Shown: piece after piece, positions 26,280-61,119 of the stretch | Layout: every line of letters starts with the position of its first letter | Position numbering within the stretch: the stretch's first letter is position 1 | Assembly (NCBI RefSeq): GCF_009914755.1 | Contig: NC_060931.1 | Direction: 5' to 3' (one strand) | DNA: 64,000 nucleotides | Source of the DNA: the human T2T-CHM13v2.0 reference genome, Homo sapiens | Program-made: the position numbers and the translations under genes | The notes under the pieces: model-generated | Told to the model about the DNA's origin: nothing | Seen by the model: only the letters and a program-made list of their open reading frames with translations | Databases searched by the model: none

Positions 26280-26287
<8 letters not shown>

Positions 26288-26317
<30 letters not shown>
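26288..26317. repeat. (TA)n microsatellite at the truncation point of the MER44 fragment
   Basis: Read directly. Confidence 0.9.
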
Positions 26318-26319
<2 letters not shown>

Positions 26320-26324
26320 AATTG

Positions 26325-26496
26325 TTCTAACATCTATAACAATATACCGTAATAAAAGTTATGTGACTGTGGTCTGTCTCTGCCTCTCTCTCAAAAATAT
26401 CTTCTTGTACTGAACTCAGCTATTTTTGGACCGCGGTTGACCGTGGGTAACTGAAACTGCAGAAAGCGAAACTGCAGATAAGAGGGGGAACTACGG
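26325..26496 (-). mobile_element. MER44A-like MITE fragment, inverted, abutting the Tigger7 copy at a TA
   Basis: TATTTTTGGACCGCGGTTGACCGTGGGTAACTGAAACTGCAGAAAGCGAAACTGCAGATAAGAGGGGGAACTACGG-TA is the reverse complement of the MER44 5' end. Confidence 0.8.
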
Positions 26497-27291
26497 TAGA
26501 CGCCACCCACCCGTTAGTCACTTGGGAGCCGTCTGGGTTATCAGATCAACTGTCTGCAAGTATTGCATTGTTTGTGTTCAAATCACCCTTATTTTCCATC
26601 ATAATGGCCCCAAAGCACAAGAGTAGTGATGCTGGGAATTTGGATAGGCCAAAGAGAAGCCGTAAAGTGCTTCCTCTAAGTGAAAAGGTGAAAGTTCTCG
26701 ACTTAATCAGGAAAGACAAAAAATCCTATGCTGAGGTTGCTAAGATCTACGGGAAGAATGAATCTTCCATCCGTGAAATTGTGAAGAAGGAAAAAGAAAT
26801 TCGTGCTAGTTTTGCTGTCTCACCTCCAACTGCTAAAGTGACGGCCACAGTGCGTGATAAGTGCTTAGTTAAGATGGAACAGGCACTGCATTTGTGGGTG
26901 GAAGAGATGAACAGAAAACGTGTCCCCATTGACAGCAACATGTTGCGCCAGAAAGCCTTGAGCCTATACCAAGACTTCAGCAAGGGATGCTCTGAAACTG
27001 ACACCAAGCCATTTACTGCGAGTAAGGGATGGTTACACAGATTCAGGCATAGATTCTCACATCATTACAAGAAGAAGAAGGGTGAGTACAGTACAAGTTA
27101 TTTTGAGAAAGAGGAGAGAGAGAGAGAGATGGATCACATTCGCCTAACTTAGTACTTGCTATACTTGTTCTATTTTGTTATCATTGTTGTTAATTTCTTC
27201 CTGTGCCTAATTGGATTTGGTATTATCCAAGGTTTCAGGCATCCACTAGCCATCTTGGAATGTGTCCCCCACAGATAAGAGGGGACTACTG
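26497..27291 (+). mobile_element. Internally deleted Tigger7/MER44 DNA transposon (TcMar-Tigger), left end missing
   Basis: Contains the transposase 5' ORF. The right TIR ...CAGATAAGAGGGGACTACTG ends at 27291 and is followed by a TA target dinucleotide. Confidence 0.88.
26604..27081 (+). CDS. Tigger7-derived transposase DNA-binding region (CENP-B_N/psq-type HTH + HTH_Tnp_Tc5), 159 codons up to a splice donor; candidate coding alternative first exon of GTF2I (182 aa if unspliced, stop 27150-27152)
   Basis: Open frame MAPKHKSSD...RKVLPLSEKVKVLDLI...YAEVAKIYGKNESSIREIVKKEKEI...KMEQALHLWVEEMNRKRVPIDSNMLRQKALSLY...FTASKGWLHRFRHR shows the pogo/Tigger/CENP-B HTH signatures. Kozak ATAATGG is good (A at -3, G at +4). 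The exon ends at AAGG|GTGAGT. Confidence 0.7.
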
Positions 27292-27314
27292 TATTCGCTC
27301 TCTCTCTCTCTCTC

Positions 27315-27823
<509 letters not shown>

Positions 27824-33998: not shown

Positions 33999-34350
33999 TG
34001 AGAGAGAAGCTGGGAGAGCAGAGAAAAGGGGCCACCGGTCGCCCCCCCGCTTCCCCGCACGCGCTCTCCAGCCGCGGCCGCCCGCCTGCCGCGGTCACCC
34101 CGGCCTCTGCCTCTGTCCCCCAGTGATCGGATCAAGGCGCTGAGCGAGGCCCTGCCTGCGGGGCGGCCATGCGGCGGTGACAGGAGCGCGACCGACACGC
34201 ACGGGCCCCTCGCCCCCTCTCGCCTCCCGTCCGCTCGCCAGCTCCCCTCAGCCGAGGCTGCTCCGCGGCGGCCGCAGCCCGCGCGCGGCCCACACTCGCC
34301 TCCCCTCGGCACCCCCGGCCCCGGAGCTGCCTGGAGGCGGCCGCACTCGG
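33981..34350 (+). other. GTF2I: GTF2I non-coding exon 1 (5' UTR); 5' boundary approximate
   Basis: The sequence GGAGGAGGAGGGTGAGAGAGAAGCTGGGAGAGCAGAG...GGAGGCGGCCGCACTCGG matches my recollection of the GTF2I mRNA 5' end. It sits in a CpG island and ends at consensus donor CGG|GTGAGT (GT at 34351-34352). Confidence 0.9.
34169..34180 (+). other. uORF ATG CGG CGG TGA (Met-Arg-Arg-stop) in exon 1
   Basis: GCGGCCATGCGGCGGTGA with a purine at -3; the only ATG I see in exon 1. Confidence 0.7.
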
Positions 34351-59740: not shown

Positions 59741-61119
59741 GACAGCAGGAACACAAAAGAATGAGCAAATTATGTCATAAATACGTGGTTACATCTAAAG
59801 GAAAATTAAATTAAGCAAAAATAGTGTTGCATCTAAAAATACAGAATTAGGCCGGGTGCGGTGGCTCACGCCTGTAATCTCAGCACTTTGGGAGGCTGAA
59901 GCGGGCAGATCACCTGAGGTCAGGAGCTCAAGACCAGCCTGCCCAATGTGGTGAAACCCCATCTCTACTAAAAATACAAAAATTACCCGGGTGTGGTGGC
60001 GGGCGCCTGTCATCCCAGCTACTCGGGAGGCAGAGGCAGGAGAATTACTCGCACCCAGGAGCTGGAGATTTCAGTGAGCCAGGATCGTGCCACTGCACTC
60101 CAGCCGGGGCAACAGAGCGAGACTCCTTCCCCCCACCAAAGAAAAAAAAAACTTAAAAACTCGTACCTAGTTGCATTCCTTATGAGCACAGAGCAAAATG
60201 TCCTCATTTTACCTGGTTTAATTTTTTTTTTCTTCCACGGCCTCTTTTACTGGGAGACCTCTGAGTTTTGATGTGTCATGACAGATAGGAGAGGTCATAT
60301 CCTTGTGATTTGTGGTTCATTGCTGGTGACATCAGAAAGTAAAGTCAACCAGGAAAAGACTCCATGGGCCTGGCTCAGGTGGCTTCTGGAGCACCACCTC
60401 CATCAAGGAGCTTTTCCTGGGGTCCATGTGTAGTCCATGTTGCCTGCTCTCCCACCCAGGGTTGCTGTGCTTATTATACAAGATGGCCAATAAAGCATGA
60501 CATATATTCAATAAATGTTCATTTCTTTTTCCAACCCTTCTTATTTTAAGTTGAGGGTATTCATAAAAGGGATTGAGCATTTCCATTTATGGACGAGGCA
60601 ACTGAGTACAGCCCCCAGGGGCACGCAGCGAGATGGCTGTCTGCTGAACCCATACACCAGCTCTCTAGGCGTTTGGTCCTGTGGGGACCGGTGCATCAGA
60701 TGCTTCCTAAGCTGGCGTCACCTGCCTGGCCCGATGCCTCCTCTGGTGTTCATTGTTTAATTAATGCCACCTCCTGATGGCAGTTTCTTTCTGGGAAGAG
60801 GAGAAAAGAGAGCCGTCCCCAAGTGAAGGGTGCAGGGAAGCCTCCACGAATAGTTTCAACTAAGGACTGTCCCAGGAAGGAAACTCTTGGGATGGGCAAA
60901 GAACAGCGAACTTCCGGTGTGACCCGGATGCACCCATTTCCAGAGAGCAGGAAGCACAGAGAAGGCCCGTGGGTCGCCCTTGGGGTGCTTTCCATCCTGC
61001 AGGGCTCGCTGCCTGCCCTGAAAGTTCTGATAAAGACATAGGACCTTCATCACCAGGGGCGCCCCGTGGGCTGTTGCTGTAGCGTCTGTCCCCCATTTCT
61101 TACACACATTGAGTGTGAT

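What the first reader, a model, noticed from the sequence alone, without database searches (positions are those of the whole stretch)
26604..27087. Candidate transposase capture: an intact Tigger7 HTH exon positioned to splice in frame onto GTF2I (Tigger-DBD::TFII-I fusion)
Seen in sequence: an old Tigger7 copy keeps a stop- and frameshift-free 159-codon frame from a good Kozak ATG through both HTH domains, with basic patches PKRSRK and KKKK. An internal deletion removes the DDE domain just after WLHRFRHR and brings in a consensus donor G|GTGAGT (27081|27082). This is on the same strand as GTF2I and ~7 kb upstream of exon 1. The donor is phase 1 (27081 is base 1 of codon 160). Recalled, not visible here: GTF2I exon 2 starts GGATC-ATG, 5 nt before the start codon. 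If so, the splice reads ...KKKK-GGG(G)-ATC(I)-ATG(M)AQVAM..., perfectly in frame. Established: host-transposase fusions such as SETMAR, CSB-PGBD3 and the paralogue GTF2IRD2 (Charlie8) exist. Inference: an alternative promoter produces an N-terminally extended TFII-I with a new sequence-specific DNA-binding module. Such a transcript may already be in annotation sets, but I know of no established function for it.
Basis: partly seen in the sequence, partly recalled or inferred. Interest (0 to 1): 0.92.

Follow-up and report, generated by a model that had tools for sequence, protein, structure and literature searches.

The report
Known Tigger7 first exon of GTF2I
The DNA-binding part of an ancient Tigger transposon serves as an alternative first exon of human GTF2I and reads in frame into TFII-I; this fusion was already reported in 2018, and its function is still untested.

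Summary
Window 26604-27081 (+) is an open 159-codon frame with CENP-B_N and HTH_Tnp_Tc5 domains. It ends at a phase-1 AGG|GTGAGT donor. GTF2I exon 2, fetched from the same assembly, begins GGATC-ATG, so the join reads ...KKKK-G-I-MAQVAM in frame.

It is not new. Dougherty et al. 2018 (Genome Res, PMC6169893) describe this Tigger7-derived first exon for GTF2IRD2, GTF2IRD2B and GTF2I. Their transcript model GTF2I_1 has a first-exon CDS of 478 nt, which equals window 26604-27081. It has long-read and junction-read support, and they report dN/dS of 0.019 in primates.

- Only this locus and the two GTF2IRD2 copies keep the frame open. The 13 other long genomic copies each carry 3-7 stops.
- Predicted fused TFII-I isoforms exist in five mammalian orders. 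All 21 examined join to exon 2 in the same phase. Their donors differ by lineage, and the internal deletion is seen only in the primate sequences.
- The human GTF2I and GTF2IRD2 copies are 99.4% identical in the CDS but 77% identical in the 5' flank, which suggests gene conversion.

Protein expression and DNA targets remain untested. Verdict: real, interpretation supported, already known, moderate-to-low interest.

The parts
26540..27081 (+). Alternative first exon of GTF2I, derived from the 5' part of a Tigger7 transposon (64-nt 5' UTR plus 478 nt of CDS)
   Evidence: Transcript model GTF2I_1 in Supplemental File S2 of PMC6169893 has exon 74650255-74650796 and CDS from 74650319. Its printed 5' sequence equals window 26540 onward. 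The 5' end comes from PacBio reads and could be incomplete.
26604..27081 (+). Coding part: 159 codons plus base 1 of codon 160 (phase-1 exon end)
   Evidence: This locus and the two GTF2IRD2 copies are the only 3 of 150 scored genomic matches that span the full length with no stop.
26652..26813 (+). First helix-turn-helix (CENP-B_N / psq type), residues 17-70
   Evidence: Pfam PF04218, E 2.7e-6. Mean pairwise identity over residues 16-72 is 93.8% and 44 of 57 columns are invariant among 13 mammalian GTF2I-fused sequences.
26874..27077 (+). Second helix-turn-helix (HTH_Tnp_Tc5), residues 91-158
   Evidence: Pfam PF03221, E 6.3e-15. It aligns to the CENP-B DNA-binding domain 1hlv. Mean pairwise identity over residues 91-152 is 78.1%.
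27054..27055 (+). Internal deletion junction of the element. It joins the end of HTH2 to Tigger 3' subterminal sequence and removes the DDE catalytic region.
   Evidence: only 3 of 40 scored loci match across it (this locus and the two GTF2IRD2 copies). The 37 others match only from query position 35-62 onward. The 12 non-primate fused orthologues lack the SHHYKKKK tail, and 11 of them keep a longer Tigger frame.
27082..27087 (+). Splice donor GTGAGT, preceded by AGG
   Evidence: It is used in the published transcript model. The GTF2IRD2B copy reads GTAAGT at the same place.
27088..27291 (+). Remaining 3' part of the Tigger element, now intronic, ending ...GGGGACTACTG and followed by TA
   Evidence: Read. 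It is homologous to the GTF2IRD2B copy up to 27212. That this is the typical Tigger terminus is recalled, not tested.
26496..26603 (+). Truncated 5' untranslated part of the Tigger7 copy. It holds the published transcript start at 26540. The first ~175 nt of the element, including the 5' terminal repeat, are missing here.
   Evidence: The alignment to the GTF2IRD2B copy (L012) starts at 26496. L012 keeps the 5' terminal repeat upstream of that point.
26340..26496 (-). Separate short Tigger-type element in opposite orientation, abutting the truncated exon-bearing copy. It is probably a MER44-like non-autonomous derivative.
   Evidence: Inverted repeats 26356-26418 against 27062-27150. Window 26421-26460 matches the 5' terminal repeat of L012 on the opposite strand at 82.5% over 40 nt. 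The MER44 name is my inference from PMC5753468.
34000..34350 (+). Canonical non-coding exon 1 of GTF2I, skipped by the Tigger7-initiated isoform
   Evidence: Hub gene table. The published model goes from the Tigger exon straight to exon 2. Exon 2 lies outside the window at window-equivalent 65403-65506.

Best explanation
Window 26540-27081 is a real alternative first exon of GTF2I, made from the N-terminal DNA-binding region of a Tigger7 (pogo/Tigger superfamily) transposase.

How the transcript forms:
- Transcription starts inside the truncated 5' untranslated part of the element.
- Translation starts at the transposase's own ATG (26604) and reads through both helix-turn-helix domains.
- The transcript is spliced from a donor in the element's 3' subterminal sequence (27081|27082, phase 1) to the normal acceptor of exon 2, skipping exon 1.
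- The product is TFII-I with 161 extra N-terminal residues: 159 from Tigger plus Gly-Ile from the junction and the 5 nt of exon 2 that are normally untranslated. It has no transposase catalytic domain.

History, inferred from predicted orthologues:
- The capture is at least as old as the common ancestor of primates, rodents, rabbits, bats and artiodactyls.
- Lineages then shortened the exon with different donors.
- Primates did so through an internal deletion, and they carry the same exon in front of GTF2IRD2.
- The coding parts of the GTF2I and GTF2IRD2 copies are kept nearly identical, probably by gene conversion.

Function, inferred and not shown: the module is a sequence-specific DNA-binding domain, most likely for Tigger7/MER44 terminal sequences. 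It would give a minor, tissue-restricted TFII-I isoform a different set of genomic targets.
For: Shown here:
- Open frame, both HTH domains and homology to the CENP-B DNA-binding domain.
- Donor position and phase.
- Exon 2 starts GGATC-ATG, so the join is in frame.
- In one search, 3 of 150 scored genomic matches are full length and open. The other 13 long matches have 3-7 stops each, a mean of 4.6 by my arithmetic.
- Neutral copies are 76-84% identical at DNA level, with 1-11 gap openings.

Shown in print (PMC6169893; passages of section 9, the Fig. 7 legend, Table S8 and Supplemental File S2):
- Full-length cDNA model GTF2I_1 with exactly this exon and a continuous CDS.
- Long-read and junction-read counts.
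- dN/dS of 0.019 across primates.

From databases:
- One search returned 143 longer proteins at E <= 1e-5, of which 120 were listed.
- I examined 14 GTF2I-fused and 7 GTF2IRD2-fused proteins. In 21 of 21, G-I or G-T stands directly before MAQVA.
- They come from Primates, Rodentia, Lagomorpha, Chiroptera and Artiodactyla, and from several annotation sources.
- Pfam on 5 fused GTF2I proteins gives HTH_Tnp_Tc5 plus 6 GTF2I repeats and no DDE_1 in all 5, and CENP-B_N at E <= 0.001 in 4 of 5 (not rabbit).

Domain-specific constraint among 13 orthologues: HTH1 is 93.8% identical on average. The N-terminal tail is 60.7% and the residue 123-134 loop is 54.9%.
Against: - The isoform is minor in most samples: 6 of 220 nanopore reads in GM12878, and junction reads of 0 against 58 in fetal brain, 1 against 58 in adult brain and 6 against 472 in cortex.
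- I saw no peptide, Ribo-seq or DNA-binding evidence.
- The RefSeq human annotation in the hub table starts GTF2I at 34000, so it does not include this exon.
- The non-human fused proteins are computational gene models. I could not check synteny or RNA support for them.
- The tree of the 152-residue domain does not resolve a single origin. The GTF2I label needs 5 changes, and the base is a polytomy with free Tigger copies.
- In primates the open frame of the GTF2I copy could be kept open partly by conversion from the GTF2IRD2 copy. There are only 3 substitutions in 478 nt of CDS, against 18 mismatches in 77 ungapped 5'-flank columns.
- Marmoset differs from human at 11 of 152 residues, so constraint is not uniformly extreme.
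Confidence: 0.85

Rival explanations
1. The exon is transcribed and spliced but has no function of its own in GTF2I. On this view it is a by-product of an enhancer or weak promoter in the element. Its frame stays open in primates because it is repeatedly overwritten by gene conversion from the GTF2IRD2 copy, where the Tigger7 exon heads the dominant brain isoform.
For: - Low share of GTF2I transcripts against 92% for GTF2IRD2 in PacBio brain data (154 against 14 and 251 against 21).
- RefSeq marks an enhancer at 26573-26702 (hub table).
- The CDS is 99.4% identical to the GTF2IRD2 copies, while the 5' flank is 76.6% identical. Only 2 synonymous differences occur in 159 codons.
- The marmoset GTF2I and GTF2IRD2 exons are identical over the 152 aligned residues, and that shared sequence differs from human at 11 of them.
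Against: - Of the 120 proteins listed, the Tigger-fused proteins outside primates that carry GTF2I repeats are GTF2I-named or unnamed; none is named GTF2IRD2. Even so, the GTF2I-fused frame is open in bats, pig, rodents and lagomorphs, with the HTH domains conserved.
- In PacBio iPS data, 4 of 5 reads use the Tigger exon.
Confidence: 0.1
2. The unit is a stand-alone 182-residue HTH protein (26604-27152) translated from an unspliced transcript. It would act as a DNA-binding-domain-only factor, not as a TFII-I extension.
For: The frame continues past the donor for 23 more codons to a stop at 27150-27152.
Against: - The published full-length reads are spliced to exon 2.
- The read-through tail differs between the GTF2I and GTF2IRD2B copies.
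- The region after the donor is poorly conserved between the paralogues, with 29 gap columns in 132.
Confidence: 0.03
3. The open frame is a chance survivor among many decayed Tigger copies and means nothing.
For: - With a mean of 4.6 stops per long copy, a Poisson estimate gives about 1% of copies with none (my arithmetic).
- The genome holds thousands of Tigger-like fragments (2964 candidates).
Against: - This exon is 82-86% identical to DDE-bearing Tigger-like proteins of other species, whereas decayed human copies are 44-61% identical.
- It has no indel, whereas neutral copies have 1-11 gap openings.
- The frame is also open in all 21 predicted orthologues and paralogues examined.
- The exon is spliced in frame to a host gene.
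Confidence: 0.01

Closest known systems
Tigger7-derived first exon of GTF2IRD2 / GTF2IRD2B and GTF2I (Dougherty et al. [quoted passage not shown] 7, Table S8, Supplemental File S2)
   Same: This is the same object. Their model GTF2I_1 has the same first exon, the same 478-nt first-exon CDS and the same 104-nt second exon. [quoted passage not shown]
   Different: The paper centres on GTF2IRD2 and gives GTF2I one sentence. In the passages I read it claims conservation 'throughout primate evolution' only. Those passages do not mention the non-primate fused forms, the lineage-specific donors, the deletion seen only in the primate sequences, or the contrast between CDS and flank identity of the paralogues. 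I did not read the whole text or see the figures.
GTF2IRD2 as a Charlie8 (hAT) host-transposase fusion
   Same: It is a paralogue in the same gene family, born by transposase capture. The preprint of Cosby et al. (10.1101/2020.05.07.082677, passage read) cites it as a documented example.
   Different: There the captured transposase is C-terminal and of the hAT superfamily. Here the captured part is N-terminal, of the Tigger/pogo superfamily, and consists only of the DNA-binding region. Primate GTF2IRD2 isoforms carry both captures.
SETMAR (SET domain fused to Hsmar1 mariner transposase)
   Same: A host gene spliced in frame to a Tc1/mariner-superfamily transposase. From my own knowledge, its DNA-binding domain still recognises the element's terminal repeats. 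This serves as a model for how the GTF2I module could work.
   Different: In SETMAR the transposase is a 3' terminal exon, keeps its catalytic domain, and is anthropoid-specific. Here it is a 5' exon, lacks the DDE domain, and appears far older. The details on SETMAR are recalled, not tested here.
Domesticated pogo/Tigger genes: CENPB, TIGD1-7, JRK, JRKL, POGK, POGZ
   Same: They share the bipartite N-terminal DNA-binding architecture (CENP-B_N plus HTH_Tnp_Tc5). There is direct sequence homology to the CENP-B DNA-binding domain structure 1hlv.
   Different: From recall, those genes retain most of the transposase body, including a DDE-derived domain, as single genes or C-terminal fusions. Here only the first ~152 residues survive, as an optional first exon of a pre-existing transcription factor.

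Membership tests
Host-transposase fusion gene (transposase capture by alternative splicing) | A domain derived from a recognisable DNA transposon | tested here: met
   Both Pfam transposase HTH domains score above their cut-offs. The genome holds thousands of decayed homologous copies. Remnants of the element's termini flank the exon.
Host-transposase fusion gene (transposase capture by alternative splicing) | Spliced in frame to host exons in mature mRNA | tested here: met
   The frame was verified from the assembly: phase-1 donor plus GGATC-ATG. The mRNA itself is shown only in print (full-length cDNA model and junction reads).
Host-transposase fusion gene (transposase capture by alternative splicing) | Kept by purifying selection in orthologues | tested here: inconclusive
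   At protein level, 21 of 21 predicted fused proteins have open frames and HTH1 is 93.8% identical across 5 orders. I could not compute a codon-level dN/dS outside humans. The published value of 0.019 is for primates. Gene conversion with the GTF2IRD2 copy confounds the primate signal.
Host-transposase fusion gene (transposase capture by alternative splicing) | Fusion protein is made | not testable with these tools
   No proteomic or ribosome-profiling data were available, and none was found in the papers searched.
Tigger/pogo transposase | N-terminal CENP-B_N plus HTH_Tnp_Tc5 DNA-binding region | tested here: met
Tigger/pogo transposase | DDE_1 catalytic domain | tested here: not met
   No DDE_1 was found in the window ORF or in any of 5 fused GTF2I proteins. 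It is present in the dugong and elephant Tigger-like proteins scanned in the same call. The exon is therefore a transposase fragment, not a transposase.
Tigger/pogo transposase | Terminal inverted repeats with TA target duplication | tested here: inconclusive
   The 3' end ...ACTACTG followed by TA lies at 27285-27293. The proper 5' terminal repeat is missing. The terminal repeat at 26421-26496 is in the wrong orientation and belongs to another short element.
Tigger7 subfamily (Repbase/Dfam name) | Best match to the Tigger7 consensus rather than to other Tigger subfamilies | not testable with these tools
   No repeat consensus library was available. The name is taken from PMC6169893.
TFII-I (GTF2I) isoform | Uses the GTF2I exon 2 acceptor and continues into the six I-repeats | tested here: met
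   Exon 2 acceptor and frame. The published CDS runs into the penultimate exon. Fused orthologues show 6 GTF2I repeats.

The most novel reading that the evidence does not exclude
The fusion is not a primate curiosity. It is a boreoeutherian-age host-transposase fusion of TFII-I that the transposase-capture literature I could read does not list. On this reading:
- Its DNA-binding module still recognises Tigger7/MER44 terminal sequences and tethers a testis- and stem-cell-enriched TFII-I isoform (and, in primates, the main brain isoform of GTF2IRD2) to those dispersed repeats.
- In primates, gene conversion between two genes of the Williams-Beuren region keeps the coding exon nearly identical.
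Probability: 0.3. Interest if true: 0.65.

Novelty: already known. Interest (0 to 1): 0.3.

Why it matters
GTF2I is a dosage-sensitive gene of the Williams-Beuren region and has been linked to social behaviour. An isoform with an extra sequence-specific DNA-binding module could have its own target set. The case is a clear example of transposase capture through an alternative first exon.

The existence of the isoform, its domains, its frame and its conservation in primates were published in 2018. As a discovery the finding therefore adds nothing.

What may still be worth a specialist's time:
- The apparent age of the fusion, with fused forms in five mammalian orders.
- The turnover of donors among lineages.
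- The apparent concerted evolution with the GTF2IRD2 copy.
- The complete lack of protein-level and DNA-target data.

Tried and rejected
- Structure prediction of the 159-residue module from alignment A1 was not accepted, because the tool was not ready. No fold or fold search was done. Homology to the CENP-B DNA-binding domain rests on sequence only.
- The main text of the Cosby et al. preprint has 0 mentions of Tigger or pogo and 1 of GTF2I*, which is GTF2IRD2. Its supplementary gene list, which may or may not include GTF2I, could not be opened.
- File 1 of the Dougherty supplement was not searchable. The sequence of GTF2I_1 in file 2 is cut after about 400 letters, so the junction was confirmed from the GTF and the genome, not from the cDNA letters.
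- Literature searches other than one search found nothing further on this exon:
  - Tigger7: 15 papers.
  - Transposase, GTF2I and fusion terms: 11 papers.
  - Host-transposase fusion plus GTF2IRD2: 4 papers.
  - GTF2I, pogo and domesticated: 3 papers.
  - TFII-I plus Tigger: 1 paper.
  - GTF2I with chimeric-transcript terms: 223 papers at 3 of 4 terms. Two that hold GTF2I were checked and are irrelevant.
- The ML tree of the 152-residue domain was meant to test a single capture. The base is an unresolved polytomy, so it neither supports nor rejects one (33 rows; the gray whale row was dropped for its truncated HTH2).
- I considered that the GTF2IRD2 copy is a recent segmental duplicate of this locus. 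I rejected this because, within the 3.5-kb loci compared, homology beyond Alu-like repeat hits is limited to 26496-27212 and the 5' flank is only 76.6% identical.
- There is no CpG island at the start site. GC content is 0.38-0.47 over 26300-26700.
- The minus-strand 64-aa ORF at 26747-26941 was not pursued.
Full report
**1. The observation**

The sequence at 26604-27087 is as described.
- An ATG-initiated frame runs 26604-27152 (182 aa) on the plus strand.
- Its first 159 codons carry CENP-B_N (residues 17-70, E 2.7e-6) and HTH_Tnp_Tc5 (residues 91-158, E 6.3e-15), both above Pfam's cut-offs.
- The one clear hit among solved structures is the CENP-B DNA-binding domain 1hlv (E 1.7e-6).
- The start context is ATAATGG.
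- The exon ends ...AAG AAG AAG AAG G | GTGAGT at 27081|27082. Base 27081 is the first base of codon 160, so the donor is phase 1.
- The exon is on the GTF2I strand, 6919 nt upstream of exon 1 (hub table).

**2. The recalled exon 2**

Exon 2 lies outside the window, so I fetched the next 6 kb of the same assembly. The acceptor reads CAG|GGATC-ATG. The ATG is at window-equivalent 65408, and the exon is 104 nt long, 5 nt plus 33 codons.

**3. More than chance**

I searched the whole assembly with the 159-aa translation. That gave 150 scored matches out of 2964 candidates.
- Only three span residues 1-159 with no stop. These are this locus and two 99% identical copies at C7:76051424 (-) and C7:76298492 (+). 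By their offsets from the hg38 coordinates in the 2018 supplement, these are the GTF2IRD2 and GTF2IRD2B copies.
- The 13 other matches that span at least 140 residues have 3-7 stops each (60 in all) and 44-61% identity.
- Nine decayed copies aligned at DNA level are 76-84% identical to the CDS, with 1-11 gap openings.
- A Poisson estimate from 4.6 stops per copy gives roughly 1% open by chance. Openness alone is therefore not decisive. The low amino-acid divergence, the absence of indels and the orthologues in section 5 are.

**4. Already in print**

A search for GTF2I plus Tigger returned 6 papers. One of them is Dougherty et al. 2018 (Genome Res, PMC6169893).

I read these parts of the paper:
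- The legend of Fig. 7.
- Passages of the discussion and methods.
- Table S8.
- Parts of Supplemental Files 2 and 3.

What the paper reports:
[quoted passage not shown] It is conserved throughout primates, with dN/dS of 0.019.
- 'A similar phenomenon ... in the ancestral GTF2I', as a much less abundant isoform.

Their GTF lists transcript GTF2I_1:
- The first exon is chr7:74650255-74650796 (hg38), with CDS from 74650319. That is 478 nt of CDS, equal to window 26604-27081, with a 64-nt leader.
- The printed start of the transcript equals window 26540 onward.
- The next exon is 104 nt long and lies 38.3 kb downstream.
- The CDS continues into the penultimate exon.

Table S8 counts Tigger7-first-exon reads against annotated-first-exon reads for GTF2I:

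| Data set | Tigger7 first exon | Annotated first exon |
|---|---|---|
| PacBio brain capture | 48 | 261 |
| Nanopore GM12878 | 6 | 214 |
| PacBio iPS | 4 | 1 |
| Junction reads, iPS | 10 | 188 |
| Junction reads, adult brain | 1 | 58 |
| Junction reads, fetal brain | 0 | 58 |
| Junction reads, cortex | 6 | 472 |

For GTF2IRD2 and GTF2IRD2B the Tigger7 form dominates in the PacBio brain data (154 against 14 and 251 against 21).

- The RefSeq annotation given by the hub starts GTF2I at 34000, so it does not contain the exon.
- Other searches found no further work on it.
- The main text of the Cosby et al. preprint on transposase capture does not mention it.

**5. Orthologues**

A search of the large protein collection for longer proteins gave 143 hits at E <= 1e-5, of which 120 were listed.
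- Many are named general transcription factor II-I isoforms that combine the Tigger HTH with GTF2I repeats.
- I examined 14 GTF2I-fused proteins: chimpanzee, marmoset, four bats, pig, gray whale, beaver, naked mole-rat, ground squirrel, degu, hare and rabbit.
- I also examined 7 primate GTF2IRD2-fused proteins, including two lemurs.
- In 21 of 21, G-I or G-T stands directly before MAQVA. This is the same acceptor and the same phase.

The fused GTF2I proteins have HTH_Tnp_Tc5 and six GTF2I repeats and no DDE_1 in all 5 scanned, and CENP-B_N at E <= 0.001 in 4 of the 5.

The part between HTH2 and the junction differs by lineage:

| Lineage | Residues after WLHRFRxRF |
|---|---|
| Bats | 34-35 |
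| Rodents and lagomorphs | 48-52 |
| Pig | 82 |
| Primates | the short SHHY(K)n tail |

Donors have therefore turned over, while the two HTH domains were kept.

Mean pairwise identity among 13 orthologues:

| Region | Identity |
|---|---|
| HTH1 | 93.8% (44 of 57 columns invariant) |
| HTH2 | 78.1% |
| First 15 residues | 60.7% |
| Residue 123-134 loop | 54.9% |

This pattern suggests selection on the DNA-binding fold in at least five orders.

Caveats: these are computational gene models. I could check neither synteny nor codon-level rates. The tree does not resolve a single origin.

**6. Anatomy of the element**

- A DNA query across 27020-27130 matches at full length only this locus and the two GTF2IRD2 copies (3 of 40 scored).
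- The 37 other loci match only from about 27055 onward.
- The deletion junction is therefore at about 27054/27055. The HYKKKK codons and the GTGAGT donor are ordinary Tigger 3' subterminal sequence brought next to HTH2 by a deletion seen only in the primate sequences examined.
- The element ends at 27291 and is followed by TA.
- At the 5' side, homology to the GTF2IRD2B copy starts only at 26496. The first ~175 nt, including the terminal repeat, are missing.
- Immediately upstream (26340-26496) lies a short Tigger-type element in the opposite orientation. It is probably a MER44-like derivative, because Repbase regards MER44A-D as Tigger7's non-autonomous derivatives (PMC5753468, passage).
- The published transcript start (26540) lies about 43 nt downstream of that boundary.
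- The region is not a CpG island.

**7. Relation to the GTF2IRD2 copies**

Within the 3.5-kb loci compared, homology beyond Alu-like repeat hits is confined to 26496-27212. Identity between the copies by segment:

| Segment | Result |
|---|---|
| CDS (478 nt) | 3 substitutions (two synonymous, one Ser126Cys) and one in-frame AAG; 99.4% identical |
| 5' flank 26496-26575 | 76.6% identical (18 mismatches in 77 ungapped columns) |
| 3' flank | 29 gap columns in 132 |

- Two synonymous changes in 159 codons is far below the flank rate. Protein-level selection alone does not explain the contrast, so gene conversion is the simplest reading.
- The marmoset GTF2I and GTF2IRD2 exons are identical over the 152 aligned residues. 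That shared sequence differs from human at 11 of those residues.
- In the tree, the primate sequences group by species, not by gene.
- This fits concerted evolution, provided marmoset has two physical copies. I could not check that.
- The two 5' regions are collinear: Tigger exon, then a unique 426-nt segment, then exon 2. The exon-2 flanks are only 69% identical, which fits an old duplication.

**8. Mechanism and verdict**

Shown: an alternative start in the Tigger remnant; the transposase's own ATG; two intact HTH domains; a phase-1 donor from the element's 3' region; and in-frame splicing to exon 2, skipping exon 1.

Inferred:
- The 161-residue extension is translated.
- It works as a sequence-specific DNA-binding module, most likely for Tigger7/MER44 terminal sequences. 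This is by analogy with transposase-derived domains such as that of SETMAR (recalled).
- It retargets a minor TFII-I isoform. The paper's Fig. [quoted passage not shown]

No structure prediction could be run.

The finding is real, correctly interpreted and already published. The extensions noted here (age, donor turnover, concerted evolution) are incremental and rest partly on predicted proteins.

Noticed in passing
window 60662-61087 (GTF2I intron 1): This 426-nt segment is unique in the genome apart from collinear homologues in the 5' introns of GTF2IRD2B (C7:76307306-76308068) and GTF2IRD2 (C7:76042323-76043089), at 91-93% identity. That is far higher than the 69% identity of the exon-2 flanks. 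It could be a conserved regulatory element, an unannotated exon or a second conversion tract.
   Followed up: partly
window 26340-26496, minus strand: A short Tigger-type element, probably MER44-like, sits head-to-head against the truncated 5' end of the exon-bearing Tigger7 copy. Its terminal repeat lies about 43 nt upstream of the published transcript start. If the fusion protein binds such repeats, it could bind next to its own promoter. This is speculation.
   Followed up: partly
window 27069-27080; proteins P0014, P0023, P0030: The AAG (Lys) run before the donor varies in frame among primates. There are 3 K in green monkey GTF2IRD2 and 4 K in this window and siamang. There are 5 K in chimpanzee GTF2I and in human GTF2IRD2B.
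   Followed up: no
proteins P0055, P0065, P0066 (Equus) and P0051 (Loxodonta): These are other predicted fusions of a Tigger7-like N-terminus. In horses and asses, CENP-B_N plus HTH_Tnp_Tc5 is joined to nucleoside diphosphate kinase A. In elephant, a KRAB box ('ZNF404 isoform X1') is joined to a Tigger-like protein that still has DDE_1. They may be further captures or annotation artefacts.
   Followed up: partly
proteins P0001, P0037, P0068, P0087, P0089, P0101, P0106: Close relatives of this Tigger domain (57-82% identity) are annotated in a bony-tongue fish, orb-weaver spiders, lizards, an opossum and a leafcutter bee. The spread suggests horizontal transfer of the family, or contamination.
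   Followed up: no
genome-wide: Many genomic matches to the domain stop at about residue 105-116, which suggests an abundant internal-deletion derivative with a common breakpoint. Eight such copies, seven on C2 at 87-113 Mb and one on C7, share one frame pattern and look like parts of segmental duplications.
   Followed up: no
window 26283-26322, 27114-27129, 27295-27320: Simple repeats flank the element: (TA)n upstream, (GA)n inside the 3' remnant and (CT)n just after its end.
   Followed up: no
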